Source: a virus (taxonomy: Duplodnaviria; Heunggongvirae; Uroviricota; Caudoviricetes). Taken from it: a stretch of 64,000 bases of DNA. The translations under genes and the position numbers were made by a program. The notes below the pieces were generated by a model, which was not told the DNA's origin, did no database searches, and worked only from the letters and a program-made list of their open reading frames with translations. Positions within the stretch are counted from its first letter, which is position 1. Each line of letters starts with the position of its first letter. The stretch covers positions 10,995 to 74,994 of IMG/VR virus record IMGVR_UViG_3300021963_008171; one strand, written 5' to 3'. Below are positions 3,823 through 60,812 of the stretch, one piece after another.

Positions 3823-3847
3823 TTTTTTCCAATTTAATTGGAAAAAA
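3823..3847 (+). promoter_or_regulatory. perfect 12-nt inverted repeat abutting the start codon
   Basis: TTTTTTCCAATT (3823-3834), then T, then AATTGGAAAAAA (3836-3847). The last A is the A of ATG 3847. Confidence 0.4.
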
Positions 3848-4353
3848 TGACAAAGACACTTAAAATCCTATTTATAGCAATTTTTGCTATGGCATTTTCC
3901 TTTCAATCTTTCGGACAAGGAAAATCTGTTCTCATAGGGGAAATCACTAACAAAATTCAAATTGGAAATCTAGCAGGATCTAGGCCATTAACTTTTGGCT
4001 TTAGAAATCTATTGGAGGAATACCTTCAAGAAAACGATTTTGACATCGTAGAAGACGAGACTAAATTTGATTACAAGGTCAACATAGATCTTCTTTTCTT
4101 TGATGTTGAGACCACAAAGTCTAGCGTTGCAATATTCCACAAAAACAATGCAGAGACAGTACTAAAAATAAAGGCATATCTTTTAGATAATAAGGGGAAG
4201 AAAATAAAAGAATGTTTAATAACAGAAAAAGCTTCCGAGATTTCAACATCAACTTTAATAGTTGACGAGGGCGGAAAAATGAATCAACAATCGGTTTCTA
4301 CAGTTATTAAAAAGGTGTGCGGAACAGCAATAAAACAATTATTAACACAATGA
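3847..4353 (+). CDS. secreted short CsgG-like protein
   Basis: Signal peptide MTKTLKILFIAIFAMAFSFQSFGQ. The blocks FGFRNLLEEYLQENDFDIVE, DYKVNIDLLFFDVE and VLKIKAYLLDNKGKKIKE align by eye with CsgG-family blocks and with the paralog at 13503. Confidence 0.5.
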   Translation: MTKTLKILFIAIFAMAFSFQSFGQGKSVLIGEITNKIQIGNLAGSRPLTFGFRNLLEEYLQENDFDIVEDETKFDYKVNIDLLFFDVETTKSSVAIFHKNNAETVLKIKAYLLDNKGKKIKECLITEKASEISTSTLIVDEGGKMNQQSVSTVIKKVCGTAIKQLLTQ

Positions 4354-6005
4354 AAAAACTAATTTTATTATCAGTATTTTTTCTCCTGTTTGGATTCTCA
4401 GGATTTGCACAATTGACGATTAGTCAATCCCTAACACCTACCTCGGGTTTAAAGGTTGGTGACACGATTACAGTTAGATATAATTTAACGAAAGGAACAG
4501 TGATTAAGAATCCTCGTTATCTTTGGTTTAGATATCAGTTTAACAACAAAGCTCTGACTTATGTTTCAACTGCTTTCAATCAAGGATCATCTTCTCAAAC
4601 ATTCTATACAGGTTGGAGCAATTATAAGTTTACGCCAAACGGCGGAGCAAGTGACAATGATCTGGATGTCCAGTATGGTTTAACCCCTTGGAACTACGCA
4701 GTTAATTCTGATTGGAATGTTGGTCAATTAGCGGTTCAAAGAGCAGACCAATCTATTAATGGGTTAATCGCAACACAAAAGTACATTTTGAAGGATCAAA
4801 ATACCTACAACAATATCTTTAAAATAGATTTAGCATCAGGTACGGATACAACAGGTGCAAATGTTGGAACTATTTACGGCGGGGGTTGGTCTTCTATATC
4901 CGGTGTAACTGGTAACACTTCACAATTCAAGGTGAAAGTACTATTCCCTCAGGGATATGCAATCTCTGACCATAATGTTCAATTAATGAAATTAAAATCA
5001 GACGGTAGCGGAGATATCGATTGGTCACAACAGCCTATTGCTCAATTACCTCTAGATGCTACTGGAGAGGCTCTTTTCACAACGCAGGTTAAAGTTGGTG
5101 ATAGCGTTGGTGTGTTTGTATCACCAGCATCCCAAAAATCTTGGATGAATAATGTGATCACGGTTTCTGATGCTTATAAGGCATTTTTAGGACACACACA
5201 AACTGATATCGGCGGAACTGCAAACTTTTTCACTTATCCAGTTTTGGAGAAAAAGGTAGGAAATGTTACTAAAAACGATGCAACGTTTAACGAAGCGGAT
5301 TCTTATAATTTATTCGCTTATGTAATGGGACAAGACGTGTCAGCAAACGCATTCATTCCTACAAGCACTGTGACATCTTGGAGATGGTATAGCGGTTTAT
5401 TAAATCAAAGTTGGTTAGACGGAGTTATTAAGAATAGGGTATTAATTGATACACCTATCAAAGAGGTTTATGCTGTATATGCTTGGGGAGGTGATTTAAA
5501 CTGGTCTCACTCATCAGATCCTGCAGTGATTGCAAGTAGAATATCAGCTGGACAGTATACGAATTCTGTAAATTCAATTCAGACAAACTCTGTTAAATCA
5601 ATGAGTAGTGTTTCCATGGCTTACAGAACAGAAGCAGTTGAAACTGCTAAGCTAAGCGTAACATCAACTTTAGAAAATGGCAAGGTTATTTTAACAACAA
5701 CTTTAACTAAAGCAGAACTAGCAGGTTTACAAGTTGTTATGAACTATGACGAAAGCAAATTAACATTGGATAACGTGGTGTTCGATGCAGGTTCTACTAT
5801 AACGAACTTCTCAACCCACGATGGTGGTAGATTAACATTTGGTTCTATAGATCAATTAAAAACAGCAAGAATTAAAACTGGTACACCTTATAAATTAATC
5901 TTCACACCAAAGGTAGCATTATCAAACACTGCGGGATTATTCTACTTTGTACTATCAGACGCAGTTGACGGCAAAGGAAATAAAATCGACCTAATAGTTG
6001 AATAA
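4350..6005 (+). CDS. secreted protein with a C-terminal cohesin-like module
   Basis: ATG 4350 forms an ATGA overlap with the previous stop. Signal peptide MKKLILLSVFFLLFGFSGFAQ. The C-terminus LQVVMNYDESKLTLDNVVFDAGS...YKLIFTPK parallels the C-terminus of the next protein. Confidence 0.65.
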   Translation: MKKLILLSVFFLLFGFSGFAQLTISQSLTPTSGLKVGDTITVRYNLTKGTVIKNPRYLWFRYQFNNKALTYVSTAFNQGSSSQTFYTGWSNYKFTPNGGASDNDLDVQYGLTPWNYAVNSDWNVGQLAVQRADQSINGLIATQKYILKDQNTYNNIFKIDLASGTDTTGANVGTIYGGGWSSISGVTGNTSQFKVKVLFPQGYAISDHNVQLMKLKSDGSGDIDWSQQPIAQLPLDATGEALFTTQVKVGDSVGVFVSPASQKSWMNNVITVSDAYKAFLGHTQTDIGGTANFFTYPVLEKKVGNVTKNDATFNEADSYNLFAYVMGQDVSANAFIPTSTVTSWRWYSGLLNQSWLDGVIKNRVLIDTPIKEVYAVYAWGGDLNWSHSSDPAVIASRISAGQYTNSVNSIQTNSVKSMSSVSMAYRTEAVETAKLSVTSTLENGKVILTTTLTKAELAGLQVVMNYDESKLTLDNVVFDAGSTITNFSTHDGGRLTFGSIDQLKTARIKTGTPYKLIFTPKVALSNTAGLFYFVLSDAVDGKGNKIDLIVE

Positions 6006-6006
6006 T

Positions 6007-8301
6007 ATGAGATTTTTATTATTTATATTATTTTCTCTAATATCATTTTTAGGGTTCGGACAGAGTGTATCTGCTCCGGACTCTAAATCGTTTATACCAT
6101 CCACAACCGGCCAAGATGGGAGTGGATTCCAATTAAGTGGATTTAGTGCAACATCTACTTTATTAGCATCAATCAGTTTAATCAATCCATCAACAAATAC
6201 TACATTTTACCTTAACGATACACGAGGATTAATTGCCGCAAGTGGATTTACTTTAACGGGTAATAAAACTCGTTTAGTGGTATTGGGAACAATGTCAGAT
6301 ATTAATACTGCATTGGTATCTTTAAAAGTTAATACAGGTTCTGTAGTTGGTAATGTTCAATTATCGGTAGCGGCAACTGTAAACCCTGTTGGATTCTTTT
6401 ACAATGGAGTTAATGGACATTTTTACAAACCCATAACCGCAACCAATGAAAGAACTTCATACACACTTGCAAGAAGTAGGTCATTGCTAACTACATTCAA
6501 AGGACAGACAGGCTATTTGGTAACAATAACATCGGCTTCCGAAGATGCATTTATATTCGCAAATGTTCCTGCAACTAATGTATGGTTTGCTGCAACAGAT
6601 GAAATAAAAGATGGAACTTGGGTAATTGATGCTGGTCCTGAAAAAGGTACTGTGATGAAAACCTCAAATGGACAAACTAATGGAAACATTCCTGGCGTAT
6701 ATAACAACTGGGCACAAGGTGAACCAAATGGTAGTAATGGTAGTGAGAACTATGCAGTGGCAAAGTGGAATGGTGCTGCAAATTGGAACGATTTATCAAA
6801 CAATTGGAGTAATCCTTATGTAATTGAATACGGAACTTGGACTAACCCTGATGATGCAACATTTACTGAATTCTATACTAATAGTGTAACTCACTCAAAT
6901 GGGGAAGTATTGAGAGCAGCATTCAATGTTGATTTCGGAACTAATGTAGATGAAACAAAATTTTCAGCAAAAGCAAATACGTATGTAAATAATTTATGGG
7001 GTACAACAACTAACACATCAAGATCAATTAGTGGATTAGGTAAAGTAGATGTTACAAATGATTTGGATACTGTAAAGATTCAAAACGGAGGATACGTGGG
7101 TTCAATAGTAGGAGGGCAGGTAGAATGGTCTTATGTTAATTTTTATAACGGAGCAACCACACTTTACATTGACATGAGAAAGTTTGGTGCGATCGGTGCA
7201 AATTCTGTATCACACATTACACTCTTAGATGTATACAGTGGACCTGTTACCTTTTTAGGAAATGATGCAACCTGGGCAAGATATACGATACCCTCGACCC
7301 TTCCGAAAGTAACAAACGGAACGTCAACAAATTCACAATATATTCGCAACGCTGGATACGGAGATTATGCATTTATGTGTGAGATTTCATTTGAACTTAA
7401 TCGTGAATATAAACAACACGGAATAGAATTATCGTATACTAATCAAACAGATTTGAACACCCTGTATAATAGTATCGTTACTGTATCTGATGTGTTTATA
7501 GCATTTAAAGAATTATCAAATGGCGGGATATTTGGGGATCAAAGCGGATTGGAATTTACCAACGGTATTCAATTTATGAACGCAGATGTGGACGGTAATG
7601 GATTATTCAATGAATCCGACACGTATAAATTATTACAGCACCTAACTGGAGTTCAGCCATTAACACAAAATCCATTATTAACATTCTTGATGAAGCTTTA
7701 TAGCAAATCTGATTATGATGCAATTACAAAATCAAATTGGAACACAAGATTTAATTCTACGAGAAGTCTATTTCCATTTAGTTTAAATACGGGTACCCTT
7801 AATAACACATACAATGTGAACGTAACCTGGATAGGTGACGTAAACCTTTCTCATTCGGCACAACAAACTGCAAGCGGTGTTGCAACCAATTCATATAGAA
7901 GCATGAGCCTAATGACTAATACAACCACTAATGAAATAAATGCATCAATCATGGGTGAAAATGTTGGAGGTAAGGTTATAGTAACGATATCAGTAGACCC
8001 ATTACAGCAAGAATTAGTAGGAACCCAATTCCAGTTGAATTATGATAATACCTCGTTGGAATTTCAAAAAGTAGATTTTATAACAAAAGGTAATCCAACA
8101 AATTTTGGAACAGATAAAGGATCTTATATCACATTGGGATCATTAATCACTGATGGATCAACAATATTAGACAAAACAACAGAATATAAAATAACATTCG
8201 TACCAAAAATTGGATTAACTGGAACATTAGGGTTAACTTCTGTTTCAGCAACAGATGCTGTTAATAAAGCAGGAACTCAATTAAAAGTAAAATTAAACTA
8301 A
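6007..8301 (+). CDS. secreted multidomain protein: C-type lectin, dockerin-like EF-hand repeat and cohesin-like C-terminus
   Basis: Signal peptide MRFLLFILFSLISFLGFGQ. C-type lectin signature GHFY...YLVTITSASEDAFI...WFAATD...WAQGEPNGSNGSENYAV...WNDLS...YVIEYG. Dockerin-like MNADVDGNGLFNESDTYKLLQHLTG. C-terminus FQLNYDNTSLEFQKVDF...YKITFVPK. Confidence 0.75.
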   Translation: MRFLLFILFSLISFLGFGQSVSAPDSKSFIPSTTGQDGSGFQLSGFSATSTLLASISLINPSTNTTFYLNDTRGLIAASGFTLTGNKTRLVVLGTMSDINTALVSLKVNTGSVVGNVQLSVAATVNPVGFFYNGVNGHFYKPITATNERTSYTLARSRSLLTTFKGQTGYLVTITSASEDAFIFANVPATNVWFAATDEIKDGTWVIDAGPEKGTVMKTSNGQTNGNIPGVYNNWAQGEPNGSNGSENYAVAKWNGAANWNDLSNNWSNPYVIEYGTWTNPDDATFTEFYTNSVTHSNGEVLRAAFNVDFGTNVDETKFSAKANTYVNNLWGTTTNTSRSISGLGKVDVTNDLDTVKIQNGGYVGSIVGGQVEWSYVNFYNGATTLYIDMRKFGAIGANSVSHITLLDVYSGPVTFLGNDATWARYTIPSTLPKVTNGTSTNSQYIRNAGYGDYAFMCEISFELNREYKQHGIELSYTNQTDLNTLYNSIVTVSDVFIAFKELSNGGIFGDQSGLEFTNGIQFMNADVDGNGLFNESDTYKLLQHLTGVQPLTQNPLLTFLMKLYSKSDYDAITKSNWNTRFNSTRSLFPFSLNTGTLNNTYNVNVTWIGDVNLSHSAQQTASGVATNSYRSMSLMTNTTTNEINASIMGENVGGKVIVTISVDPLQQELVGTQFQLNYDNTSLEFQKVDFITKGNPTNFGTDKGSYITLGSLITDGSTILDKTTEYKITFVPKIGLTGTLGLTSVSATDAVNKAGTQLKVKLN

Positions 8302-9194
8302 TGAAAAGGATAACAATCATATTAATCTTACTTTTCATAGGGGTTTATTCTAAAGCACAAATTGTAAAACCTGATACGTTACAGCTTTCACCTAAAGAAT
8401 TGTTTGGTGAGAGTGATGATTGGAATGATATAGGTATATTACAATCCTATATTGATTTTTCAAAAGACGTTCTTTCATCCTCAAATCTATCTGTTGGTAT
8501 AATCGGAAAACAGGTGTCAAGTACTTTAAATCTGGGATACAGTAAATGGTCTAATAATGGAGTATGGGGACACTCATTTTCCACATCAATAAATCCGATA
8601 TGGAATTATTATGGTGTTGGTTATGGATTTAGTAGAAATACTGATAAGAGAACAACAACATTACAAACATTCTATTCAACTGATTTTGATTTTCAAAAAG
8701 ATATCAGTATTTCATTTATAGATGTTTTCAGGACAAAAAAGTTTGGGACATTTGGGTATAGCTTAATTGCATCAAAAACATTTTGGGGAACATATGAAGG
8801 AGCATGGGAAGGAAAATACACAGTTGATGCGAATGGTAATTTTTTGGATTTGATTTACCCACAAATGCCGGCATCATCCGAAATGATTTATAAAGGAATG
8901 TTAATGTACACATATACAATCAAAACAAAGAGAGTTAATATATCCCCACAAATATTTGCTATGAGCGACATCTATAAAGATTTTAAGGATGGTACCTCTT
9001 CGGATTTAGCATATCTTGATGATTTCAATTTGGATTTATATTATGGTACATCATTCGATTGGAAAATAACTAAAAGATTTGTTTTAAACACTAATATTAG
9101 ATTCAACAAAACGTGGGATAAATTAAGCGAGTCTGTTGGATATAAAAAAAGTAATCCAATAATGTTTATGATAGGAACAAACTTTCAATTTTAA
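8301..9194 (+). CDS. outer-membrane beta-barrel-like protein (paralogous to the C-terminus of 10224..11669)
   Basis: Signal peptide MKRITIILILLFIGVYSKAQ. Alternating aromatic/Gly-rich strands with a terminal ...MIGTNFQF. Shared blocks: ISPQIFAMS/IAPQVFVTS and GTSFDWKITKRFVLNTNIRFN/GFSYDYKLTGRFGLNLNYRFS. Confidence 0.6.
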   Translation: MKRITIILILLFIGVYSKAQIVKPDTLQLSPKELFGESDDWNDIGILQSYIDFSKDVLSSSNLSVGIIGKQVSSTLNLGYSKWSNNGVWGHSFSTSINPIWNYYGVGYGFSRNTDKRTTTLQTFYSTDFDFQKDISISFIDVFRTKKFGTFGYSLIASKTFWGTYEGAWEGKYTVDANGNFLDLIYPQMPASSEMIYKGMLMYTYTIKTKRVNISPQIFAMSDIYKDFKDGTSSDLAYLDDFNLDLYYGTSFDWKITKRFVLNTNIRFNKTWDKLSESVGYKKSNPIMFMIGTNFQF

Positions 9195-9197
9195 AAG

Positions 9198-9455
9198 ATG
9201 AAAAAAATATTAATTATATCATTTTTATTCTTAACAATATCATCTTGTACTAGTTACAAGATTAGGGTAATACAGTATGATGGAACTGGATATTCGTTGT
9301 ATTTGCCAATGAAAAAACACGGATTGGATAAATGGTACGATGATAACATTGTGTACTATTCTGAAGAGATGGCAAGGTTTAAAATTAAAAAATGGAAGAG
9401 TGAGGAATATCATTCGGATCCGTGGAAAAAACCAAAATACATTAAAATAAATTAA
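9198..9455 (+). CDS. small lipoprotein
   Basis: MKKILIISFLFLTISSC contains a lipobox Cys. 85 codons. Confidence 0.6.
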   Translation: MKKILIISFLFLTISSCTSYKIRVIQYDGTGYSLYLPMKKHGLDKWYDDNIVYYSEEMARFKIKKWKSEEYHSDPWKKPKYIKIN

Positions 9456-9799
9456 TGAAAAAGATATTATTCATATTTCTGATTTTACTGTATGGATGTA
9501 CTAAACCGGAGTTACCAACACCGGCACCGCCAGTCGAAAAAATATTTGATGTTGGGGAGAGTAGTGTTACCAATGGACAATCTTTGTATTTTGATTTACC
9601 ATCACCTGGAGTTTATATTTTATCCTTAATTGATAAAGAGACAAACCAAGTAATAAGCAGAGAAAAATTCGTGGGTCAGATTGGGGAGAATTCAAGAAAG
9701 ATCTATACCAATTCTATAAAATCACAAACGCTATATCTATTGTTGTCAGATTCTTCTAAAAACGAGATGAAAAGAACAACTATATTAATAAGAAAATAA
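9455..9799 (+). CDS. small lipoprotein, beta-sandwich-like (T9SS-CTD-like pattern)
   Basis: MKKILFIFLILLYGC lipobox. The stretch GQSLYFDLPSPGVYILSLIDKETNQVIS...LYLLL resembles the Por-secretion-tail / Ig-like pattern. Confidence 0.55.
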   Translation: MKKILFIFLILLYGCTKPELPTPAPPVEKIFDVGESSVTNGQSLYFDLPSPGVYILSLIDKETNQVISREKFVGQIGENSRKIYTNSIKSQTLYLLLSDSSKNEMKRTTILIRK

Positions 9800-9810
9800 A
9801 ATAAAAAGAA

Positions 9811-10185
9811 ATGAAAAAATCACTAATCTTCTCAATCTGCGTTATTCTATTTGCAGGATGTACAAAAGACGACATGCTAATTCCTATGCAGGAACAAATT
9901 AAACCAGAGCTTGCTATTCAAAACAGCGTGGGTATTAAATTAGAAACCCCATTTGTTTCCAAGGAAGTTTCAATGAACGTAAAATTGGAAAAGGAAGGTA
10001 CTGTAGTTATTAAAATAACTGACATATCAAATAGAGTTGTATCTAAGGAACAGGTTAATGTAAAGGCTGGAGATAATCTATTGAAAGTTTATACCTCTGC
10101 TTTACCATCTTCTTCATATAGAATTGGTATCTACGACTCTAGTAACAATCTTCTAGGAATAACAGACTTTAATAAGATAAACTAA
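9811..10185 (+). CDS. small lipoprotein, beta-sandwich-like (T9SS-CTD-like pattern)
   Basis: MKKSLIFSICVILFAGC lipobox. The stretch VVIKITDISNRVVSKEQVNVKAGDNLLKVYTSALPSSSYRIGIYD matches the xIxIxDxxGRxV...G.N...L..G.Y pattern. Confidence 0.55.
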   Translation: MKKSLIFSICVILFAGCTKDDMLIPMQEQIKPELAIQNSVGIKLETPFVSKEVSMNVKLEKEGTVVIKITDISNRVVSKEQVNVKAGDNLLKVYTSALPSSSYRIGIYDSSNNLLGITDFNKIN

Positions 10186-10223
10186 AAGATTATCTTAAAA
10201 TATTTGAGGCGGAGAAAAATTGA

Positions 10224-11669
10224 ATGAAGAAATTATTATTGTTCCTTTTATTGGTAGTAGCATCCTTTGCTGCTAGTGCACAGACCTTCACCCAGACCTA
10301 TGTGGATAAATGTACTGGGGAGCTCAAAGTTGTGGTGTCTGCTCCTATGCCCAATGGTGGAGTAATGATTTCTTTTTATAATCAAATGAAGATATTCACG
10401 AATGCGCAGGTCAATGACGGAACGGTTCAAAAATGGCTGAATCAAGTTTATACTGATTATAATACAAGACCTTGTCCAGTAAGTACTGTTGCTGTACAAA
10501 CAGTTCAACAAACTGTTGCACAAGCGGCATCAGCTGCTGCATCTGCTGCAGCTTCTTCCGCAGCAAGTAATGCAGCTTCATCTGCAGCTAGTTCTTCGGC
10601 ATCAGCTGCTGCTTCATCGTCTGCAAGTAGCGCTGCAAGTTCTTCTGCATCATCTTCTGCTAGTGCTTCTGCTGGTTCATCCGCGGGTGCTTCTGCTGGT
10701 TCATCAGGAGGTCCTTCTTCTCAAAGCTCAGGCGGATCTTCAGGTTCATCTAGCTCTAACGGGGAAAGTAAAAGTAGTGGATCATCATCAGGAGAATCAA
10801 AATCTGAAAGTAAAGCTGAATCAAAATCTGAAAGTAAATCAGAATCAAAATCCGAAAGTAAAAGTGAGGAGAAGAAAGAGGAAAGCAAATCTGAGAGTAA
10901 AAAAGAGGAGAAGAAAGAGGAGAATAAAAAAGAAGAAGAGAAGAAAAAAGAGGAGGAGAAAAAGAAAGAAGAGGAAAAGAAGAAGAAAGAAGAGGAAAAG
11001 AAGAAGAAACAATCCGTTAGTAATCCCACACTAGTTGCTTCCGATCTTGCAGTAACACAAGGAAATGACGGTAGATATTCTGCTATGATATCAACAGGTA
11101 TAAGCAAATCTTCCATGACGGGAACGGAAAGTTGGGGATTAACATCCATGATATGGACAACATTTGATCAATTTGCTTTGAATGGCGGATACACTAAAAT
11201 GAATTTCGAAAAAGGCAAATTAAAGAACATAGATTCATATTCTATGACATTAGCATACCTTCAGGGAAATATCATGATTATGCAGGGTTATACGCACATT
11301 AAACCGGATCCTAAGATAGGTACTTATGGATTTAACGTAGGAGTTGTTAGCTTATTATTAAAGGATGGAAATAAGTATACCTATTCTGCTTCTTTTTCGT
11401 CCATCGGATTTTGGACAAAGATTTATCAGGTAAATAAAAAAACATCAATAGCTCCTCAGGTTTTCGTAACAAGCTCCCCGATATCATGGAATCCAAACAC
11501 CAATCAAACCTTGGTAAACAGACATTACGGATATATGACAGGGTTTTCGTATGACTACAAATTAACTGGAAGATTCGGGCTTAATCTAAATTATAGATTT
11601 TCTGGATCAACCCAAGCGGGAACACCGATATTGCATAATTTTATGATAGGATCGAGGATTATGCTGTAG
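10224..11669 (+). CDS. secreted protein: N-terminal domain, long Ser/Ala to Ser/Gly to Ser/Glu/Lys to Glu/Lys low-complexity linker, and C-terminal beta-barrel-like domain
   Basis: Signal peptide MKKLLLFLLLVVASFAASAQ. The linker spans roughly 160 residues. The C-terminal ~200 aa are paralogous to 8301..9194 and end ...FMIGSRIML. Confidence 0.65.
   Translation: MKKLLLFLLLVVASFAASAQTFTQTYVDKCTGELKVVVSAPMPNGGVMISFYNQMKIFTNAQVNDGTVQKWLNQVYTDYNTRPCPVSTVAVQTVQQTVAQAASAAASAAASSAASNAASSAASSSASAAASSSASSAASSSASSSASASAGSSAGASAGSSGGPSSQSSGGSSGSSSSNGESKSSGSSSGESKSESKAESKSESKSESKSESKSEEKKEESKSESKKEEKKEENKKEEEKKKEEEKKKEEEKKKKEEEKKKKQSVSNPTLVASDLAVTQGNDGRYSAMISTGISKSSMTGTESWGLTSMIWTTFDQFALNGGYTKMNFEKGKLKNIDSYSMTLAYLQGNIMIMQGYTHIKPDPKIGTYGFNVGVVSLLLKDGNKYTYSASFSSIGFWTKIYQVNKKTSIAPQVFVTSSPISWNPNTNQTLVNRHYGYMTGFSYDYKLTGRFGLNLNYRFSGSTQAGTPILHNFMIGSRIML
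10523..11010 (+). repeat. coding low-complexity tract including a 3 x 24-nt tandem repeat (10794-10865)
   Basis: GAATCAAAATCTGAAAGTAAAGCT, GAATCAAAATCTGAAAGTAAATCA and GAATCAAAATCCGAAAGTAAAAGT encode ESKSESK(A/S). GCN/TCN runs lie upstream and GAA/GAG/AAA/AAG runs downstream. Confidence 0.85.
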
Positions 11670-11675
11670 AAAAAA

Positions 11676-11707
11676 GATATATAAAGTTGAAAAAATCCTC
11701 ATTCCGT
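11676..11707 (+). promoter_or_regulatory. leader box copy 2: GATATATAAAGTTGAAAAAATCCTCATTCCGT
   Basis: Matches 3680-3710 except for one substitution and one inserted T. It begins 7 nt after the stop of 10224..11669 and heads a 168-nt leader before ATG 11844. Confidence 0.5.
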
Positions 11708-11843
11708 TAGCAAGAAATCTACATTTCTTCGTACGTCTTTTCAAAACTAGCTGGCTTATTGCCGGAAACCTGTATGAAAGGCGGGTCTCAACTTTGAGTA
11801 TTTTTTCTAGGTATTAAAAAAAACCGAATATAAAATAAACAAA

Positions 11844-12158
11844 ATGAGCGAAGAAACAGAAAACGACGGAACCTGGTCAGGTTTAAAAAAGACAATCGTA
11901 GGAGTACTTGGTACAGTAGTAACTGCAGGTGGAGTATTTTTAACTACACTATTAGGAGGCGGAGATAAAGACGAAGCCCCAGCACCAGCAGCCCCAGTAA
12001 TTAACATCACAAACTCAAATCAACAGCAACAAGCAGCAGGAAAAACCGTGATTATTCAGGGTGGCAACAATGGCGGAACAGGCAAACCAGCAGCTCCAGC
12101 TCCAGCACCTAAGAAGAAAGAAGGTGATGAGTTTAAAGAGGAAGCACCAAAATGGTAA
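11844..12158 (+). CDS. single-pass membrane protein with Pro/Ala-rich segments
   Basis: TM helix IVGVLGTVVTAGGVFLTTLLGGG, then APAPAAP ... KPAAPAPAPKKK. Confidence 0.55.
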   Translation: MSEETENDGTWSGLKKTIVGVLGTVVTAGGVFLTTLLGGGDKDEAPAPAAPVINITNSNQQQQAAGKTVIIQGGNNGGTGKPAAPAPAPKKKEGDEFKEEAPKW

Positions 12159-12334
12159 ATATGGAACAAGGGCTAAGTTTCATAGCAGTAGTTGCAGTAT
12201 GTTCAATAGCTATGTTTGTATTTAATTCACCAATAATGTTTTTAACATCTTTTATAATTGGATGTAGCTACTTGGTATTAAGAGGGAGAAAAAAGGGGTG
12301 GAGATTACCCAAAGATATAAAAAATACACATTAA
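12152..12334 (+). CDS. small two-helix membrane protein
   Basis: LSFIAVVAVCSIAMFVF and IMFLTSFIIGCSYLVL. The start is either ATG 12152 or ATG 12161. Confidence 0.45.
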   Translation: MVNMEQGLSFIAVVAVCSIAMFVFNSPIMFLTSFIIGCSYLVLRGRKKGWRLPKDIKNTH

Positions 12335-12348
12335 TAGAATAAATTAAA

Positions 12349-12918
12349 ATGGCAGAAAAAAATCAACAACCAAGTGGATTTAAAGACCTATTAAACTCGA
12401 TGATGACCCGCAGATGGTACATCACCGCATTAGTGTTAGGCGGATTTATGCTAATACTAGCAGGAATGTTTGCAGCTATAGGAATAGGAACCAAAATGGC
12501 AGGAGAATGGAAAGAGCTTCTTCTTTTATTATTAGGGGCTTTTATTGGCTCTTATGGTAAGATTATAGACTACTGGTTCTCAGATACCGACAAAGACAAG
12601 ATGCTAGTTCAGAAGATGGACGAAGAAGATGGAACTACTTTATCTCATACTAATGACATGAAGGAAACTAACAAGCCATACGCACCAACTATCCCTGATG
12701 CATTTGTTGCAGGAGCACAAGCTGCTAGAGAATTAGCAGTGGTTGAAAATCAGCAAAATTTTGAATTGGCTAAGGATCAACAAGAGCACGAGCAGGAAAT
12801 GGAAAAGCTTGAATATGAATCTCATAGACAATGCGAGCATGAATGGGGTGATTCCGATAATGATGGAGAACTTGAATGTCAAAAATGCGGATTGTTAAAA
12901 GACAATTTCGAGGGTTAA
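12349..12918 (+). CDS. membrane protein with an acidic/coiled C-terminal domain containing a CxxC pair
   Basis: Two hydrophobic helices (WYITALVLGGFMLILAGMFAAIGIG and LLLLLLGAFIGSYG). The C-terminus reads ...HRQCEHEWGDSDNDGELECQKCG. Confidence 0.55.
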   Translation: MAEKNQQPSGFKDLLNSMMTRRWYITALVLGGFMLILAGMFAAIGIGTKMAGEWKELLLLLLGAFIGSYGKIIDYWFSDTDKDKMLVQKMDEEDGTTLSHTNDMKETNKPYAPTIPDAFVAGAQAARELAVVENQQNFELAKDQQEHEQEMEKLEYESHRQCEHEWGDSDNDGELECQKCGLLKDNFEG

Positions 12919-12942
12919 TCCCAAACAATATAAAATAATAAC

Positions 12943-13197
12943 ATGACTTTTAAAGAATGGATCATAGATCTTTTTAAAGACGAAAGAGGAGCAATTTCAG
13001 TAAAACCTGTGATTGCATTTGTTGGATCATTATTCCTTTGCGGAACGATGTTAGCTAACTCTTTCAGTGAAGAGCATTTTAAACCAGCAGCAGAATTGGT
13101 GAATGCAGTAATGGTAATAACAGCAATCGGTATGGGCGCTGATACATTAGATAAATTCACTAAGAAAGCACCTGCGGACAAGCAAGAAGAAGCTTAA
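12943..13197 (+). CDS. small two-helix membrane protein (holin-like size and topology; unproven)
   Basis: Helices VIAFVGSLFLCGTMLANSF and LVNAVMVITAIGMGA with a charged C-terminus. A hairpin follows at 13204-13225. Confidence 0.5.
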   Translation: MTFKEWIIDLFKDERGAISVKPVIAFVGSLFLCGTMLANSFSEEHFKPAAELVNAVMVITAIGMGADTLDKFTKKAPADKQEEA

Positions 13198-13203
13198 AGT
13201 TGA

Positions 13204-13225
13204 GGAACGGGTTAATCCCCGTTCC
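13204..13225 (+). terminator. terminator-like hairpin
   Basis: GGAACGGG, loop ttaatc, CCCGTTCC: a perfect 8-bp stem 7 nt after the stop. The downstream tract is only weakly T-rich. Confidence 0.4.
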
Positions 13226-13258
13226 CTTCAAATACAAATAAAACACGACTAAACCCCC

Positions 13259-13492
13259 ATGAAAAATCAATTAACAAAAGCAAGTGAATTTCTATTTCAC
13301 GTATACCTAAGACTTTGTCTGTGCTGGGTATTTTTTGCACTAGGAATACAGGTATTCTTTGTGTATTTACAAGTTAGCGATCAACAAGAAAGAATGCGTC
13401 AATATTCAAACGAATTCGAATGGAAATTTGACGGAAGATTTAAAAACAATCCAGAAAACATTATGTACGAAGGACCGACATCTGAAAAATAA
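13259..13492 (+). CDS. small membrane protein
   Basis: Hydrophobic segment FLFHVYLRLCLCWVFFALGIQVFFVYL. 77 codons. Confidence 0.45.
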   Translation: MKNQLTKASEFLFHVYLRLCLCWVFFALGIQVFFVYLQVSDQQERMRQYSNEFEWKFDGRFKNNPENIMYEGPTSEK

Positions 13493-13502
13493 TTAGGAAA
13501 GA

Positions 13503-14240
13503 ATGAAAAAGCAAATATACAACATCTCAATACTGGTCATCGTTTTTATGATTGGTTTTGTTCTGACTACAAAAGCTCAGACTATAGGTAAAACGAAAAC
13601 TGAAGATTTTAAAGCGGACTTCGAAAAGAAGAAGGATATTTCAGCATATCTTGATTACGAGGGTCCAAAGAAAAATATTCAATTGTTAAAGTGCGGAATC
13701 AATGATGAAACGTACGAGGCATATCCAGAATTAAAAGAAAAAAGAGTAGGACTTGGTGTTACTAACATCGTATTAGAATATCTTGATAACCTAAATAGAT
13801 TCGAATTCACTGAGGATAAAACCGAGATTAAAAACAGAATGGTGAAGCAATTCCAAGCATCACAATCTGGAATTTCTGAAAACAAATTAGACGGTAGAGG
13901 AAAGATAAAGCTAGCACACTATTTTGTTGAAATTGAAGTCTATGATTATTCAGTATCTGAAGACGAGTCAATTAGTCTAAAGGATGGCATCAAAGATAAT
14001 CTTGTAACAAGATTGGGTCTTCAGGTTAGATTTACTAATGCAGAGACTGGAGCAATAATAGCAGCATCTGGATTAGGTGAGGCTAAAACAACTAGGGAAT
14101 TAACTCTTGTTGCTGATGCTTCTGTTGACCCTATTAAATTCAATCAATCTACAATTAGTATTTCAACCAAAAAAGCATTGGATATAGCATGTGCAAACAT
14201 TCTAGATAAGATGATTAGAAAGGGAGTATTCCCTCAATAA
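13503..14240 (+). CDS. CsgG-family-like secretion/assembly protein
   Basis: Signal peptide MKKQIYNISILVIVFMIGFVLTTKAQ. The blocks GVTNIVLEYLDNLNRFEFTE, LAHYFVEIEVYDYS and LGLQVRFTNAETGAIIAASGLGEAKT align by eye with E. coli CsgG blocks (ATAMLVTALKDSRWF, ANIMVEGSIIGYES, IAVNLRVVNVSTGEILSSVNTSKT). Confidence 0.65.
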   Translation: MKKQIYNISILVIVFMIGFVLTTKAQTIGKTKTEDFKADFEKKKDISAYLDYEGPKKNIQLLKCGINDETYEAYPELKEKRVGLGVTNIVLEYLDNLNRFEFTEDKTEIKNRMVKQFQASQSGISENKLDGRGKIKLAHYFVEIEVYDYSVSEDESISLKDGIKDNLVTRLGLQVRFTNAETGAIIAASGLGEAKTTRELTLVADASVDPIKFNQSTISISTKKALDIACANILDKMIRKGVFPQ

Positions 14241-26844: not shown

Positions 26845-28470
26845 ATGAGCAAGTTATCAGAGTACGCGGTTAAGTCCAAAACAGAAATTAGAAAATACGA
26901 GGATCTAGTTGTTGAGAATTTTATGGGGGGTAATTCCTATAAATTGTCACCGCTACAAACACTTAAAATAGTAGCTGCTAGCTCGATCTTCGGGGAGCCA
27001 CAGTACTATAGAGATGGGATAAAGAAGCAGGCTTCGATAAAGAACCATGATACCCTATTGAAATACTCAATATTTGCTGGCCTTATAGAAGGCTGTACCT
27101 CCGCAGCGGACGTTTTTACGAACGCTATTGATGCAGCCTTAGATTATGACTTCAAGGGAACTTTAGACTTAGCTACGGAGCTAAGAATGGTGTTTTTTAT
27201 GAGATTAAACCCAGCCGTCATATTTATACGTGCTTCTATCCATCCAAAAAGAGCAGAATTCAATGGATCCAACCCAGGATACATGAAAACTGTGGGCAAA
27301 TCCATAGCACTTAGACCCGATGATTTAACAAATCAGCTTGAATATTTCATGTACGTGAACAAGACAAAAAGCAAATTAAGCTCCATTGTTAAAAGAACCT
27401 GGGCAGAAAGACTTGGAGAGTATTCAAGATATCAACTAAACAAATACAAAGGCAAAAGTCTAATTGATCTTGTTAGAATTTCACACGCTTGGAATAATGA
27501 TATAGATGAGCTAATGAAGACCGGATCTATCAAGGTTGAAGAATCTGAAAGAACATGGGAAAATTTAAGGTCGGAGGGCAAGACATGGAAGGAGATTCTA
27601 GAAGCAATCGAAATCCCTCACATGGCTCTTTTGAGAAATCTGAGGGGAATCTTCAAAGAAATAGAGGATTTGGAGATTGCTAAATCCGTCATGACAAAAT
27701 TATCGGCTGGTGTTACTAAGGGAAATCAATTTCCATTTAGATATTGGTCTGCATATAAAGCGGTAGAGAAAGAAGAAATAAATCATAAAGGAGTCATTCT
27801 TGATGGATTAGAGGAGTGCATGGACATTTCAGTACTGAATATGCCAAAGCTTGATGGAAAAACTATATGTCTTTCCGATAATTCAGGATCTGCCTGGGGT
27901 CAGTTATCATCAGAATATGGAACGGTTTATGCAGCAGAGATAGCAAATCTTTCTTCACTGATTACTGGAAAACAATCCGACGAAGGCGAAATAGGTTTAT
28001 TCGGAGATCGCCTTATTGTAGAGTCAGTTTCTAAAAGAAATGGACTTCTATCTCAGTTAAAAGCTATCAATGAGGTGGAGAGAGATCATGGTAAATTGGG
28101 GGGAGGCACAGAGAATGGGATTTGGTTGTTCTTCGATGATGCAATCAAGAGTAAAAAACATTACGATAACATTTTTATCTATTCTGATATGCAAGCTGGA
28201 CATGGTGGGTTATATGGAACAGATTCTTCAGAATATAAAGATTTCTTACATGGAGATTGGAGGCATATAGATGTTCTAGCTCTTGTTTCTAAATATAGGA
28301 AAGACGTGAATCCCAAGGTGAATCTATTTTCCGTTCAAGTTGCTGGATATGACAATACAGTATTGCCGGAGAATCTTTATAGGGGAGCTATTTTAGCAGG
28401 ATGGACGGGTAAAGAGCCAGTTTTTGCTAAGGCGTTAATCGACACCTGGAACGAAATAGAAAATCGATAA
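26845..28470 (+). CDS. rsr: Ro60-like TROVE-domain protein with a C-terminal vWA domain
   Basis: By-eye matches to human Ro60: NKYKGKSLIDLVRISHAWN vs YKQRNGWSHKDLLRLSH; IPHMALLRNLRGI vs MPLTALLRNLGKM; NQFPFRY vs RIHPFHI. The vWA MIDAS-like motif is ICLSDNSGSAWG. Confidence 0.85.
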   Translation: MSKLSEYAVKSKTEIRKYEDLVVENFMGGNSYKLSPLQTLKIVAASSIFGEPQYYRDGIKKQASIKNHDTLLKYSIFAGLIEGCTSAADVFTNAIDAALDYDFKGTLDLATELRMVFFMRLNPAVIFIRASIHPKRAEFNGSNPGYMKTVGKSIALRPDDLTNQLEYFMYVNKTKSKLSSIVKRTWAERLGEYSRYQLNKYKGKSLIDLVRISHAWNNDIDELMKTGSIKVEESERTWENLRSEGKTWKEILEAIEIPHMALLRNLRGIFKEIEDLEIAKSVMTKLSAGVTKGNQFPFRYWSAYKAVEKEEINHKGVILDGLEECMDISVLNMPKLDGKTICLSDNSGSAWGQLSSEYGTVYAAEIANLSSLITGKQSDEGEIGLFGDRLIVESVSKRNGLLSQLKAINEVERDHGKLGGGTENGIWLFFDDAIKSKKHYDNIFIYSDMQAGHGGLYGTDSSEYKDFLHGDWRHIDVLALVSKYRKDVNPKVNLFSVQVAGYDNTVLPENLYRGAILAGWTGKEPVFAKALIDTWNEIENR

Positions 28471-41694: not shown

Positions 41695-42918
41695 ATGGTT
41701 TGGAATTACCAAGATACAGTGCTAGTTCATGTGGAACTTTCCAATCTTTGCAATGCTGCTTGTCCCCTTTGCCCAAGATATGTAAACAATTCGTTAAGGG
41801 TCAATCCAGAATTGGACTTGGGCAGCGTTTCTTTTGAGGATTTTAAAAAATGGTTCCCTCTAGAATTTGTACAAAAAAGTAAAGGATGGATATTCTGCGG
41901 TACTAATGGCGACCCCATGATGGCTAGAGACGTGTATGAGATATTAGAATATGTTCTCAGAAATTCGACTGCTAAGGTCCAGGTCAACACTAACGGTTCC
42001 ATAAGAGACGGGGAATTTTGGGAAAAAATAGGATCTTTATTTGCCGAGCCCTGTGAAAATAGCAGATATGTTGTTTTCTCTGTTGATGGACTGGAGGACA
42101 CGAACCACATCTACAGAAGAAACGTGAAATGGGAGAGGGTGATGGAAAATATGAGAGCCTATGCAAAATCAGGATCTACTGGTATTTGGGACTTTCTAAT
42201 ATTCAAGCACAATGAGCATCAGCTAGAGGAGGCTGAGCTTCTCTGCAAAGAAATAGGTCTAGCATTTTCTCCAAAAAGACCCTTTGGGTTTGAAACGGGA
42301 AATCCTGATGAATACCAGGACTTAATGGTTTATGACATGGAAGGAAATTTTTTATACAAGATAGAGCCGGCCAGCGAGGAGTGGAGATTAAATAGATCCA
42401 TGAATAAATTTGAGAGAGGAGAGGAAAAAATATGGATTCCGGGAAAGGGGAAAAGAACAGATGATGAAATCAAAGAAAAGTGGAATGGACTGATCGAGAG
42501 GGATCTTCCTAAATATAAATTCCCGGAAAGATTCAAAGAAAAATCAGTTAGTTGCAAATCTTGCCATCCTATCGGGAAGGAAATTTATGTTGATTGTAAG
42601 GGAAATGTTATGCCTTGCTGCTTTGTTGGAACAATGTACAACAGTGACTTTCAACACCACGAGGCATTACAGATAAAAAAACATTTATGGGACTGGGGAT
42701 TGGATAAAATAAATCTGAATAATCATTCTCTCAAAGATATACTAGATAGCAAATATCTAGATGAGGTTTTTGCCAACCGCTGGGAAGGAGCTAAGGATGA
42801 GGATAAAATGGGATATTGCTTTAACACATGCTCGGTTGATCACATGAAAGATCTTTTTGTCAGAAAGGAAAATCTACCAATTTCTTCAGAAAAATCAGGC
42901 AAAAAAAGTCTTATCTAG
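41695..42918 (+). CDS. radical SAM enzyme with a Cys-rich (SPASM/twitch-like) C-terminal region
   Basis: CxxxCxxC in LSNLCNAACPLCPRY. The C-terminal region has CKSCHP...CKGNVMPCCF...CFNTC. Confidence 0.75.
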   Translation: MVWNYQDTVLVHVELSNLCNAACPLCPRYVNNSLRVNPELDLGSVSFEDFKKWFPLEFVQKSKGWIFCGTNGDPMMARDVYEILEYVLRNSTAKVQVNTNGSIRDGEFWEKIGSLFAEPCENSRYVVFSVDGLEDTNHIYRRNVKWERVMENMRAYAKSGSTGIWDFLIFKHNEHQLEEAELLCKEIGLAFSPKRPFGFETGNPDEYQDLMVYDMEGNFLYKIEPASEEWRLNRSMNKFERGEEKIWIPGKGKRTDDEIKEKWNGLIERDLPKYKFPERFKEKSVSCKSCHPIGKEIYVDCKGNVMPCCFVGTMYNSDFQHHEALQIKKHLWDWGLDKINLNNHSLKDILDSKYLDEVFANRWEGAKDEDKMGYCFNTCSVDHMKDLFVRKENLPISSEKSGKKSLI

Positions 42919-42933
42919 GGACATTTTTTGGGC

Positions 42934-42944
42934 GATATATAAAA
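42934..42944 (+). promoter_or_regulatory. GATATATAAAA motif
   Basis: Ends 1 nt before ATG 42946. Confidence 0.35.
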
Positions 42945-42945
42945 T

Positions 42946-48076: not shown

Positions 48077-48077
48077 T

Positions 48078-50421: not shown

Positions 50422-50429
50422 AGTCTAAA

Positions 50430-51011
50430 TTATATTTGGTGTAGAAAATTGCAGTTATCTGTTAGATCGTAGCTTTTTCCGTGGATGAATTCTTCGAATA
50501 CATGCTTACTTATAGTTTCTTCGTCTCTTATTATTTCCAGTTCATGAAGAATTACCTCAAGATAATTGAGATTAAATTCATTTTTCGGGAAATTCCCAGC
50601 TCCAAATATTATATGTGAATTTGTGTCTGCTGCTAATTTGTCGTTTATAAAATAAAGGGTTAATGCATTTCCGTCTATATAAACAGTTATTACACCATTT
50701 CCTTTTGTTACCAACAATTCATATTTTCTGTTTGGCTCCCATTCAAAGTTACAAGAAAGATATTCAGTTTTTCCTTTACCGTCAGTAACAATTAATAGCA
50801 TGCCATATTCCTCCAGATCTATTCCAAGGTAGCTGGGAAGTTTAGCAAATAGAGTTGATTTTCTAGTTATTTCTTTCTCTAGTTCAAAGACTAGCTTAAA
50901 ACTAAAATCCCCTTCATAATCAAATATGTGATTTGCTGGATCTTTTATGAATTTTTGTCCTAATATATTAGGCCACATTATCCAGGGTTCACCCTCTTTT
51001 ATTTTTAACAT
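50430..51011 (-). CDS. LamG/concanavalin-like jelly-roll protein
   Basis: FSFKLVF...RKYELLVTKGNGVITVYIDGNAL...NSHIIFGAGNF...LEVILHELEII fits the Laminin_G_3 pattern. Confidence 0.5.
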   Translation of the reverse strand: MLKIKEGEPWIMWPNILGQKFIKDPANHIFDYEGDFSFKLVFELEKEITRKSTLFAKLPSYLGIDLEEYGMLLIVTDGKGKTEYLSCNFEWEPNRKYELLVTKGNGVITVYIDGNALTLYFINDKLAADTNSHIIFGAGNFPKNEFNLNYLEVILHELEIIRDEETISKHVFEEFIHGKSYDLTDNCNFLHQI

Positions 51012-60725: not shown

Positions 60726-60737
60726 CAAATTTTATAT

Positions 60738-60812
<75 letters not shown>

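What the first reader, a model, noticed from the sequence alone, without database searches (positions are those of the whole stretch)
4350..8301. C-type lectin plus dockerin-like plus cohesin-like modules on secreted proteins: possible self-assembling, glycan-binding surface scaffold
SEEN:
- The 6007..8301 protein has a textbook C-type lectin signature (WAQGEPNG...WNDLS...YVIEYG).
- It also has an EF-hand/dockerin-like repeat (DVDGNGLFNESDTYKLLQHLTG).
- Its C-terminal ~120 aa (FQLNYDNTSLEFQKVDF...YKITFVPK) are related to the C-terminus of 4350..6005 (VVMNYDESKLTLDNVVF...YKLIFTPK).

KNOWN: cohesin-dockerin pairs mediate high-affinity, Ca-dependent assembly of extracellular complexes. C-type lectin folds bind glycans and also serve as variable ligand-binding scaffolds in phage receptor-binding proteins.

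INFERENCE: the dockerin of one protein may plug into the cohesin-like module of the other, building a lectin-bearing complex.
Basis: partly seen in the sequence, partly recalled or inferred. Interest (0 to 1): 0.6.

Follow-up and report, generated by a model that had tools for sequence, protein, structure and literature searches.

The report
Phage-encoded secreted lectins with cohesin-dockerin tails
Two neighbouring genes of a large freshwater bacteriophage encode exported sugar-binding proteins whose tails carry the same "plug and socket" modules (dockerin and cohesin) that bacteria use to build cellulosomes, an arrangement not described for viruses in the literature I could search.

Summary

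Pfam finds nothing on the window copies themselves. The domain calls rest on homologues, profiles and predicted folds.

The genes lie in a block holding nine of the window's ten signal-peptide ORFs, in a jumbo phage (related contigs up to 344 kb) that probably infects Bacteroidota. The P1-P2 pair is present in 80/80 related viral loci.

- The lectin head in the P2 slot swaps between C-type lectin and PA14/GLEYA.
- P2 also carries a hypervariable beta-sandwich that occurs as discrete alleles.
- In cultured Flavobacterium phage immuto the modules are split: two dockerin-type proteins and one cohesin fused to a T9SS sorting domain.

AlphaFold (pTM 0.84) packs dockerin-X against the cohesin of the same chain. 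Self-association is therefore likely, but cis versus trans binding, the export route and the biological role remain inferred. I rate this a new variant of a known kind.

The parts
3847..14240 (+). Block of exported-protein genes ('secretome island') that contains P1 and P2, plus lipoproteins and outer-membrane-protein-like proteins
   Evidence: A heuristic signal-peptide scan found 10 of 103 ATG ORFs >=70 aa with a signal peptide, and 9 of them are contiguous here. Gene order is conserved in IMG/VR loci and in 57-298 kb contigs.
4350..6005 (+). P1 gene (551 aa), the conserved partner
   Evidence: ORF. Homologues are 82-100% identical and 550-552 aa long. Present in 80/80 related viral loci.
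4350..4409 (+). P1 signal peptide (cleavage ...GFA|Q)
4410..5129 (+). P1 N-terminal region. Its first ~60-80 residues look weakly like a second, divergent cohesin.
   Evidence: An HMM built from 46 N-terminal regions hits C-terminal cohesin segments in a consistent register (best E 1.3e-7 in a database of 81 segments). hhalign gives E 2e-4 but probability only 46%. No PDB or Pfam match.
5133..5522 (+). P1 dockerin-like + X module, degenerate (calcium ligands 1 and 3 replaced by V and K)
   Evidence: hmmsearch with the Doc-X profile gives E 3.9e-32. Alignment. hhalign.
5640..6002 (+). P1 C-terminal cohesin
   Evidence: Cohesin profile E 6.6e-42. Homology to the P2 cohesin. One of 39 P1 homologues hits Pfam Cohesin at 8.9e-4.
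6007..8301 (+). P2 gene (764 aa), the lectin-bearing variable partner
   Evidence: ORF. More than 2700 homologues, top hits 73-90% identical. Present in 80/80 loci.
6007..6075 (+). P2 signal peptide (...LGFG|Q or VSA|P)
6076..6396 (+). P2 N-terminal beta-rich domain, fold not identified
   Evidence: AlphaFold pLDDT is about 78-92 for residues 30-130. No family hit.
6397..6846 (+). C-type lectin-like domain, cysteine-free, with EPN (239-241), E247 and WND (260-262)
   Evidence: Pfam Lectin_C matches 52/61 homologues at residues ~162-268. PDB profile hits CEL-I, SP-D, mincle and MBP. It is 32% identical to the immuto phage lectin, tblastn E 1e-5 and BLASTP E 4e-12. The site residues are invariant.
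7075..7440 (+). Hypervariable beta-sandwich domain (P2 357-478)
   Evidence: Column entropy is 1.0-1.5 bits against 0.2-0.8 in most other blocks; a second variable stretch lies at 621-660. At least 5 discrete alleles with indels sit within conserved flanks. pLDDT about 90.
7447..7665 (+). Dockerin-like module: degenerate first F-hand (VTVSD495 + helix) and canonical second F-hand (D527-D538 + helix)
   Evidence: Pfam Dockerin_1 matches 15/61 homologues, best 1.3e-3, at residues 492-547. PDB dockerins 3ul4_B (1.1e-3) and 8ajy_B (1.3e-3) match at profile positions 35-76. Loop consensus.
7666..7866 (+). X region ending in the invariant motif G-D-V-N-L-S-H-S (nt 7834-7857)
   Evidence: G, D and the final S are 30/30, H is 28/30 in diverse family members. 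pLDDT 81-92.
7867..7932 (+). Disordered, variable S/T/N-rich linker
   Evidence: pLDDT <50 for module residues 143-159. Entropy about 1.1 bits.
7933..8298 (+). P2 C-terminal cohesin (type-I-like beta-sandwich)

Best explanation
P1 and P2 are a conserved pair of Sec-exported modular proteins made by a freshwater jumbo phage during infection of a Bacteroidota host.

Each consists of a variable N-terminal 'head' and a conserved C-terminal 'tail' of about 285 residues. The tail is a dockerin-like module, a conserved X region, a flexible linker and a cohesin.

P2's head is a calcium-dependent sugar-binding C-type lectin (EPN type, by rule mannose/GlcNAc/fucose-like sugars) followed by a hypervariable beta-sandwich. 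In sister phages the lectin is replaced by a PA14/GLEYA lectin.

The dockerin-X part binds a cohesin of the same family. Binding may be to its own cohesin (closed form) or to that of a neighbouring P1 or P2 molecule (head-to-tail chains). The proteins would then act as multivalent glycan-binding assemblies in the envelope of the infected cell.

The most likely role is binding of strain-variable host surface glycans, for example to mask phage receptors. That would block superinfection and stop progeny from sticking to infected or lysed cells.

Shown: domain identities, export signals, phage context, synteny, head swapping, hypervariability.
Inferred: Doc-Coh binding, oligomerisation, surface location, biological role.
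For: Domains:
- Lectin.
- Cohesin.
- Dockerin-like.

Shared tail. The tail always sits at the extreme C-terminus of the 500-880 aa full-length proteins. Only 198 clusters (50% identity) match among 1.84 billion representatives.

Heads are lectin types. Among 79 family representatives PA14 matches 19, GLEYA 17, Lectin_C 4 and LCCL 2. PA14 replaces the C-type lectin in the same cassette slot in L055 and L078.

Doc-Coh functional link:
- In phage immuto, gp13 (Lectin_C 1.9e-15) and gp14 carry Doc-X, while gp15 carries the cohesin. This split-versus-fused pattern (a 'Rosetta stone' link) ties the modules together.
- AlphaFold of the tail with a diverse alignment gives pLDDT 87 and pTM 0.84, with only the linker disordered.
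- The same two-domain arrangement aligns over 305 columns (TMq 0.66) with an independent BFVD model that is 17% identical.
- Precedent for self-binding Coh+Doc on one polypeptide: R. bromii Amy4 (PMC4611034).

Export and host: signal peptides cleaved before Q, and the secretome island. Immuto gp15 has a T9SS sorting domain at 5.4e-9.

Phage context: contigs up to 344 kb and 155 IMG/VR loci.

Diversifying pattern.
Against: - No binding was measured or modelled between chains. The AlphaFold result favours cis contact, which by itself gives no P1-P2 complex.
- The dockerin match never reaches the Pfam threshold. Its first calcium loop is degenerate, and P1's second loop is also degenerate.
- P1 and P2 lack any recognised signal for crossing the outer membrane (no T9SS sorting domain), so they could remain periplasmic.
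- The lectin's long-loop region is poorly modelled (pLDDT <50).
- The receptor-masking role has no direct evidence.
Confidence: 0.5

Rival explanations
1. Closed-clasp reading. Dockerin-X and cohesin bind only within one chain and form a rigid C-terminal stalk or anchor domain. P1 and P2 act as independent monomeric adhesins and no scaffold is built.
For: pTM 0.84 for the single chain, with a 17-residue or longer flexible linker that would allow fold-back. Nearly all full-length family members listed carry Doc-X and Coh in cis. The arrangement is reproduced in an independent BFVD model.
Against: In immuto the modules are on separate proteins, two Doc-X to one cohesin, so trans binding must occur there. 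AlphaFold cannot tell cis contacts from domain-swapped trans contacts. Amy4 shows that self-recognising Coh+Doc can multimerise.
Confidence: 0.3
2. Docking-onto-a-third-party reading. The tails attach P1 and P2 to a cohesin or dockerin partner that is host-encoded or encoded elsewhere in the phage and is anchored on the cell surface by the type IX secretion system, as immuto gp15 would be.
For: Immuto gp15 is cohesin + Por_Secre_tail. The BFVD relative is annotated with a T9SS sorting domain. P1's N-terminus may be an extra, free cohesin-like module.
Against: No other ORF in the 64 kb window has a Doc-X or cohesin module. A pattern scan of 185,579 species genomes found only one hit, a 3.4 kb MAG contig that is probably phage; that scan has limited sensitivity.
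Confidence: 0.12
3. Virion-component reading. P1 and P2 are tail-fibre or decoration proteins, and their lectin and hypervariable domains recognise the host for adsorption.
For: Hypervariable allelic domains and swappable lectin heads are typical of receptor-binding proteins. Lectin domains are known on jumbo-phage virions (PMC7824862).
Against: Both have cleavable Sec signal peptides and sit in a block of lipoproteins and OMP-like proteins. In immuto the cassette lies among replication and nucleotide-metabolism genes. There are no PHROG structural hits.
Confidence: 0.06
4. Chance motif resemblance with no real lectin, dockerin or cohesin.
For: Pfam finds nothing on the window copies at E<=1.
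Confidence: 0.02

Closest known systems
Flavobacterium phage vB_FspM_immuto gp13-gp15 (GenBank MW353176; annotated 'lectin C-type domain-containing protein', 'hypothetical protein', 'cohesin domain-containing protein')
   Same: Syntenic cassette of exported proteins. There is a lectin with a Doc-X tail, a P1-like protein with a Doc-X tail, and a cohesin. The downstream genes are homologous: gp16~w11844 at 61%, gp17~w13503 at 52%, gp18~w10224.
   Different: In immuto the modules are split, the cohesin carries a T9SS sorting domain, and the genome is 160 kb. In the window each Doc-X is fused to its own cohesin and there is no sorting domain. The window also has an extra N-terminal domain and a hypervariable domain. 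I found no functional study.
Non-cellulosomal cohesin-dockerin systems, e.g. Ruminococcus bromii amylosome protein Amy4 and the Clostridium perfringens GH84/GH33 toxin complexes
   Same: Secreted modular proteins that combine carbohydrate recognition with cohesin and dockerin modules. Amy4 has both on one chain and binds itself (PMC4611034). C. perfringens cohesins are the best Foldseek hits (2jh2, 2w1n, 2vo8).
   Different: Those carry enzymes, belong to Gram-positive bacteria and have complete two-loop dockerins. Here there is no catalytic domain, the host is Gram-negative, the genes are in a virus, the dockerin is half-degenerate, and there is an extra conserved X region with a GDVNLSHS motif.
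Cellulosome scaffoldins and type I cohesins (C. thermocellum CipA, A. cellulolyticus ScaB, C. acetobutylicum CohA2)
   Different: There is one confirmed cohesin per protein (plus a possible second, divergent one in P1), not tandem arrays. No glycoside hydrolases and no CBM3.
Animal calcium-dependent C-type lectins (collectins SP-D and MBP, mincle, langerin, sea-cucumber CEL-I)
   Same: The EPN...E...WND calcium-site-2 ligands and the WIGL-like core are shared. Profile E-values are 2.8e-5 to 1e-2.
   Different: No disulfides, and about a 25-residue insertion in the long-loop region. The domain sits inside a 764-aa phage protein. Sugar specificity is untested.
PA14/GLEYA fungal and bacterial adhesins (Flo/Epa type)
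   Same: Sister phages place a PA14/GLEYA head on the same tail in the same gene slot. From my own knowledge, both head types are calcium-dependent glycan binders.
   Different: The window copy has the C-type lectin head, not PA14.
Type IX secretion cargo of Bacteroidota (signal peptide + functional domains + C-terminal sorting domain)
   Same: The overall layout is the same: signal peptide, variable functional head, conserved beta-sandwich at the extreme C-terminus, Bacteroidota context. Two relatives carry a true sorting domain or are annotated with one.
   Different: The terminal beta-sandwich of P1/P2 is a cohesin, not a Por_Secre_tail domain.

Membership tests
C-type lectin-like domain (Pfam PF00059 Lectin_C) | Sequence match to the family model above the curated threshold | tested here: inconclusive
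   The window copy has no hit at E<=1. 52 of 61 homologues (73-90% identical) match, up to 27.5 bits against a cutoff of 22.6. The family profile hits PDB C-type lectins, best 2.8e-5.
C-type lectin-like domain (Pfam PF00059 Lectin_C) | Calcium-site-2 / sugar-binding residues (EPN or QPD, E, WND) | tested here: met
   E239-P240-N241, E247 and W260-N261-D262 are invariant in 61 sequences and align with SP-D and CEL-I.
C-type lectin-like domain (Pfam PF00059 Lectin_C) | Two conserved disulfide bridges | tested here: not met
   The positions that align with the canonical cysteines of SP-D, mincle and CEL-I hold Y249, S/N and I in P2; the domain sequence is. The immuto homologue keeps only one cysteine in its lectin domain. 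From my own knowledge, cysteine-poor bacterial CTLDs exist.
C-type lectin-like domain (Pfam PF00059 Lectin_C) | CTLD fold | tested here: inconclusive
   AlphaFold models the first half (helices 152-161 and 177-186, with strands) at pLDDT 64-85, but the long-loop region 190-267 is below 50. No domain-specific fold search was possible.
Cohesin (Pfam PF00963) | Sequence match to the family model | tested here: met
   The window copy has no hit. Homologues reach 26.3 bits against a cutoff of 24.1. 40 of 79 wider family members match, best 3.3e-10. PDB cohesins match at 5.9e-6.
Cohesin (Pfam PF00963) | Cohesin beta-sandwich fold | tested here: met
Cohesin (Pfam PF00963) | Binds a dockerin | not testable with these tools
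   There is only indirect support: single-chain pTM 0.84 and the split/fused relationship with immuto.
Dockerin type I (Pfam PF00404) | Sequence match above the curated threshold | tested here: not met
   Best Pfam E-value is 1.3e-3 (15/61 homologues); one shown hit scores 14.2 bits against a cutoff of 22.9. Only 2 of 79 wider family members match. The profile against PDB dockerins gives 1.1e-3 to 0.03 at the correct position.
Dockerin type I (Pfam PF00404) | Two tandem calcium-binding loop-helix (F-hand) repeats | tested here: inconclusive
   The second repeat is canonical (D527 x D/N529 x D/N531 G x F D/N535 x x D538; D538 is 30/30). The first keeps only the helix and D495 (30/30), with L at ligand position 3. 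P1's second loop has V and K at ligand positions 1 and 3.
Cellulosome / amylosome | Dockerin-borne enzymes assembled on a multi-cohesin scaffoldin | tested here: not met
   No catalytic domain is detected in P1, P2 or the 79 family members; the heads are lectins. There is one confirmed cohesin per protein.
Type IX secretion cargo | C-terminal sorting domain (Por_Secre_tail / TIGR04183 or type B TIGR04131) | tested here: not met
   No hit on P1 or P2 in Pfam or NCBIfam at E<=1. It is present in the relative immuto gp15 at 5.4e-9.
Diversity-generating retroelement target (C-type-lectin-fold variable protein) | Template repeat near the variable region, plus a reverse transcriptase | tested here: not met
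   blastn of the P2 gene against the whole window finds no second copy. The variable part is not the lectin domain, and it varies as whole alleles with indels.

The most novel reading that the evidence does not exclude
A virus-built 'lectinosome'. Jumbo phages of freshwater Bacteroidota would export a self-assembling cohesin-dockerin scaffold that displays exchangeable lectin heads and a hypervariable binding domain on the infected cell. Its purpose would be to control what sticks to that cell: rival phages, its own progeny, particles, or glycans made by the phage's own glycosyltransferase cluster at 41.7-55.2 kb. In this reading the Doc-X-cohesin tail also serves as a new kind of C-terminal sorting or anchoring module that replaces the T9SS sorting domain seen in relatives.
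Probability: 0.15. Interest if true: 0.8.

Novelty: new variant of a known kind. Interest (0 to 1): 0.55.

Why it matters
Cohesin-dockerin assembly is known from bacterial and archaeal extracellular complexes. I found no paper describing it in viruses. The only trace is domain labels in the GenBank record of phage immuto.

In this window it appears as a conserved and abundant cassette. There are thousands of metagenomic sequences and 155 viral loci, from freshwater jumbo phages.

The cassette has features of an arms-race locus: swappable lectin heads and an allelic hypervariable domain. If the proteins do decorate infected cells, they would be a new type of phage-directed remodelling of the host surface in Bacteroidota.

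A culturable test system exists: phage immuto with Flavobacterium sp. LMO8. The compact Doc-X-cohesin tail, with its invariant GDVNLSHS motif, could also be a useful self-associating protein tag.

Tried and rejected
- Pfam, PHROGs and NCBIfam directly on P1 and P2 gave nothing.
- blastn against GenBank phages gave nothing.
- DGR hypothesis: no template repeat in the window.
- T9SS sorting domain on P1/P2: absent.
- Idea that the small lipoproteins w9455/w9811 are detached T9SS sorting domains. There are only weak Por_Secre_tail/DUF3244 hits. An ortholog HMM does not match immuto gp15's sorting domain (domain E 0.43). Rejected for lack of support. The two are paralogues of each other.
- Idea that w8301 (297 aa) is a PorP/SprF-like or other known outer-membrane family: no hit. 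It is absent from 36 of 80 loci.
- P1 N-terminus against PDB: only insignificant hits (E 0.2).
- Bacterial homologues of the tail: one hit, on a 3.4 kb MAG contig.
- The search for related loci with the diverse alignment failed because no stretch was conserved enough.
- The afdb50 fold library was unavailable.
- The third homologue search with the tail profile returned mostly short proteins from short contigs, probably fragments, and none had a T9SS domain.
- Promoter and terminator scans gave counts no higher than in shuffled sequence.

Full report
**What is there**

The region holds two tightly packed + strand genes. P1 runs from ATG 4350 to stop 6005 (551 aa). P2 runs from ATG 6007 to stop 8301 (764 aa), and its stop overlaps the next start codon. 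Homologue lengths of 550-552 and 757-770 aa confirm the ATG starts.

**Is the similarity real?**

P1 and P2 share a C-terminal tail. BLASTP gives E 1e-18 at 27% identity. Profile-profile comparison gives probability 99.1 and E 5e-19. The shared part is about 290 residues (P1 266-551, P2 487-763).

**Domain identities**

Pfam, PHROGs and NCBIfam give nothing for the window proteins themselves, even at E<=1. The evidence appears at family level.

- Among 61 P2 homologues (73-90% identical), Lectin_C matches 52 (best 1.6e-6), Cohesin 22 (9.1e-6) and Dockerin_1 15 (1.3e-3).
- These matches fall at residues ~162-268, ~647-752 and ~492-547 respectively, and some exceed Pfam's thresholds.
- A family profile against PDB returns almost only C-type lectins: CEL-I 2.8e-5, SP-D, mincle, langerin, MBP.
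- The calcium/sugar ligands E239-P240-N241, E247 and W260-N261-D262 are invariant. The canonical cysteines are absent.
- A first AlphaFold model of P2 (pLDDT 67) was enough for Foldseek. The top 25 PDB hits, and 40 of the top 46, are cohesins.

**The tail studied on its own**

A profile of the two window tails was searched against 1.84 billion cluster representatives. It found only 198 clusters. In the full-length proteins of 500-880 aa the tail is at the extreme C-terminus.

With 30 diverse tails as the alignment:
- PDB profile search returns cohesins (3l8q 5.9e-6, 4ums, 2y3n, 1tyj) at profile positions 160-260.
- It independently returns dockerins (3ul4_B 1.1e-3, 8ajy_B 1.3e-3, 4fl4_A, 5m2s_B, 4uyp_B) at positions 35-76.
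- 34 of the 37 hits are one or the other.

In the dockerin-like part, the second loop follows the dockerin/EF-hand consensus D-x-N/D-x-D/N-G-x-F-D/N-x-x-D, and the last D is 30/30. The first repeat keeps only its helix and an invariant D495. P1's second loop has lost ligands 1 and 3.

Between dockerin and linker lies a conserved X region. It ends in an invariant G-D-V-N-L-S-H-S motif of unknown function.

**Why I think dockerin-X and cohesin touch**

- For two domains of 142 and 125 residues, a pTM of 0.84 cannot be reached without a confident mutual arrangement. Independent domains would give about 0.5. This is my inference from how pTM is defined.
- The best BFVD match is a 636-aa protein of an uncultured phage, 17% identical. 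It aligns over 305 columns with TMq 0.66, so an independent prediction has the same two-domain arrangement.
- In the cultured Flavobacterium phage immuto the modules are split. gp13 is signal peptide + Lectin_C (1.9e-15) + Doc-X. gp14 is signal peptide + P1-like region + Doc-X. gp15 is signal peptide + Cohesin (6.4e-9) + T9SS sorting domain (5.4e-9). Fused in one lineage and split in another is the classical sign of interacting partners.

None of this distinguishes cis binding from trans (head-to-tail) binding. R. bromii Amy4 is an experimental precedent for a cohesin that binds the dockerin of its own polypeptide and multimerises (PMC4611034).

**Context**

The window is phage-like.
- It has a T4-type kinase/ligase-family ATPase, a DNA polymerase exonuclease subunit and an SPFH protein shared with crAss-like and Lak phages.
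- It has a tRNA and a tmRNA.
- Homologues lie on contigs of up to 298-344 kb from lake metagenomes and on 155 IMG/VR viral loci.

Nine of the ten ORFs with a heuristic signal peptide lie contiguously at 3847-14240. Six are cleaved before Q and three have lipoprotein cysteines. From my own knowledge, cleavage before Q is typical of Bacteroidota. Two homologues sit in Sediminibacterium and Schleiferiaceae metagenome bins.

The order w3838-P1-P2-(w8301)-w9455-w9811-w11844-w12349-w13503-w10224 is conserved. P1 and P2 are present in 80/80 loci. Immuto shares gp16, gp17 and gp18 with this block, and there the cassette sits among replication genes, not structural genes.

**Signs of function**

- Heads on this tail are lectin types. 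Among 79 representatives PA14 matches 19, GLEYA 17, Lectin_C 4 and LCCL 2.
- In loci L055 and L078 a PA14 head replaces the C-type lectin in the very same gene slot.
- P2 residues 357-478 form a confidently modelled beta-sandwich. Among otherwise conserved homologues it exists as at least five discrete alleles with indels. P1 is much more conserved.
- No DGR template is present.
- P1's N-terminus may begin with a second, divergent cohesin-like module. hmmsearch gives a best E of 1.3e-7 in a small database, and hhalign gives E 2e-4 with probability only 46%. This is suggestive only.

**Interpretation**

I conclude that P1 and P2 are phage-encoded exported lectin-type adhesins with a self-associating cohesin-dockerin tail. 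They probably act in the envelope of the infected Bacteroidota cell on strain-variable glycans. Receptor masking is my preferred role, held at modest confidence.

The main open points are:
- cis versus trans binding;
- how CTD-less proteins would cross the outer membrane, since relatives use or are annotated with T9SS sorting domains;
- the ligand.

The 'one plugs into the other' model is unproven, and the cis model competes with it.

**Novelty**

Non-cellulosomal cohesin-dockerin pairs and bacterial C-type lectins are known. I found no paper on cohesin-dockerin modules in phages. Only the GenBank domain labels of immuto point that way. I therefore rate it a new variant of a known kind.

Noticed in passing
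window 7075-7440 (P2 residues 357-478): A hypervariable beta-sandwich domain occurs as at least 5 discrete alleles with indels among homologues whose flanks are conserved. There is no DGR template in the window.
   Followed up: partly
window 7834-7857 (P2 610-617) and 5484-5507 (P1 'GGDLNWSH', 379-386): The motif G-D-[VL]-[ND]-x-S-H-S at the end of the X region, just before the flexible linker, is invariant in 30 diverse family members. Its function is unknown; it could be a split calcium site or a processing site.
   Followed up: partly
window 60314-60728 (+): A tmRNA gene (Rfam RF00023, 80.4 bits) lies directly upstream of tRNA-Met at 60738-60812. ARAGORN reported only the tRNA.
   Followed up: no
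window 41695-55234: A cluster of glycan-related and radical-SAM genes: three radical-SAM proteins, two NAD epimerases (one fused to a 2OG-Fe(II) oxygenase), and two eukaryote-like GT7 galactosyltransferase-family proteins (one fused to Laminin_G_3). It could make a glycan that the lectins recognise; this is untested.
   Followed up: no
window 26845-28470 (+): A protein with a TROVE (Ro60-like) domain match (E 2e-6). No Y-RNA-like family reached the Rfam gathering threshold in the window.
   Followed up: no
window 8301-9194 and 10224-11669: Two signal-peptide proteins have weakly similar C-terminal regions (BLASTP E 0.009) that end like outer-membrane beta-barrels. The second has a long Ser/Ala- then Glu/Lys-rich low-complexity stretch. 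The first is present in only 44 of 80 related loci.
   Followed up: partly
window 9455-9799 and 9811-10185: Two paralogous small lipoproteins (HMM E 1e-27 to 1e-30) with weak DUF3244/Por_Secre_tail-like hits are conserved in 75-76 of 80 loci. They are not significantly similar to the T9SS sorting domain of immuto gp15.
   Followed up: yes
window 59334-60251 (+): An SPFH/band-7 (prohibitin-like) protein is 43-48% identical to proteins of crAss-like phages and Prevotella Lak megaphages. This is a further link to phages of Bacteroidota.
   Followed up: no
L005 (phage immuto MW353176) 7800-13682: The cultured 160 kb Flavobacterium phage carries a split version of the cassette (lectin+Doc-X, P1-like+Doc-X, cohesin+T9SS sorting domain). 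It gives an experimental system for testing the model.
   Followed up: partly
window 62001-64000: GC content rises to 0.458 from about 0.35 in the rest of the window.
   Followed up: no
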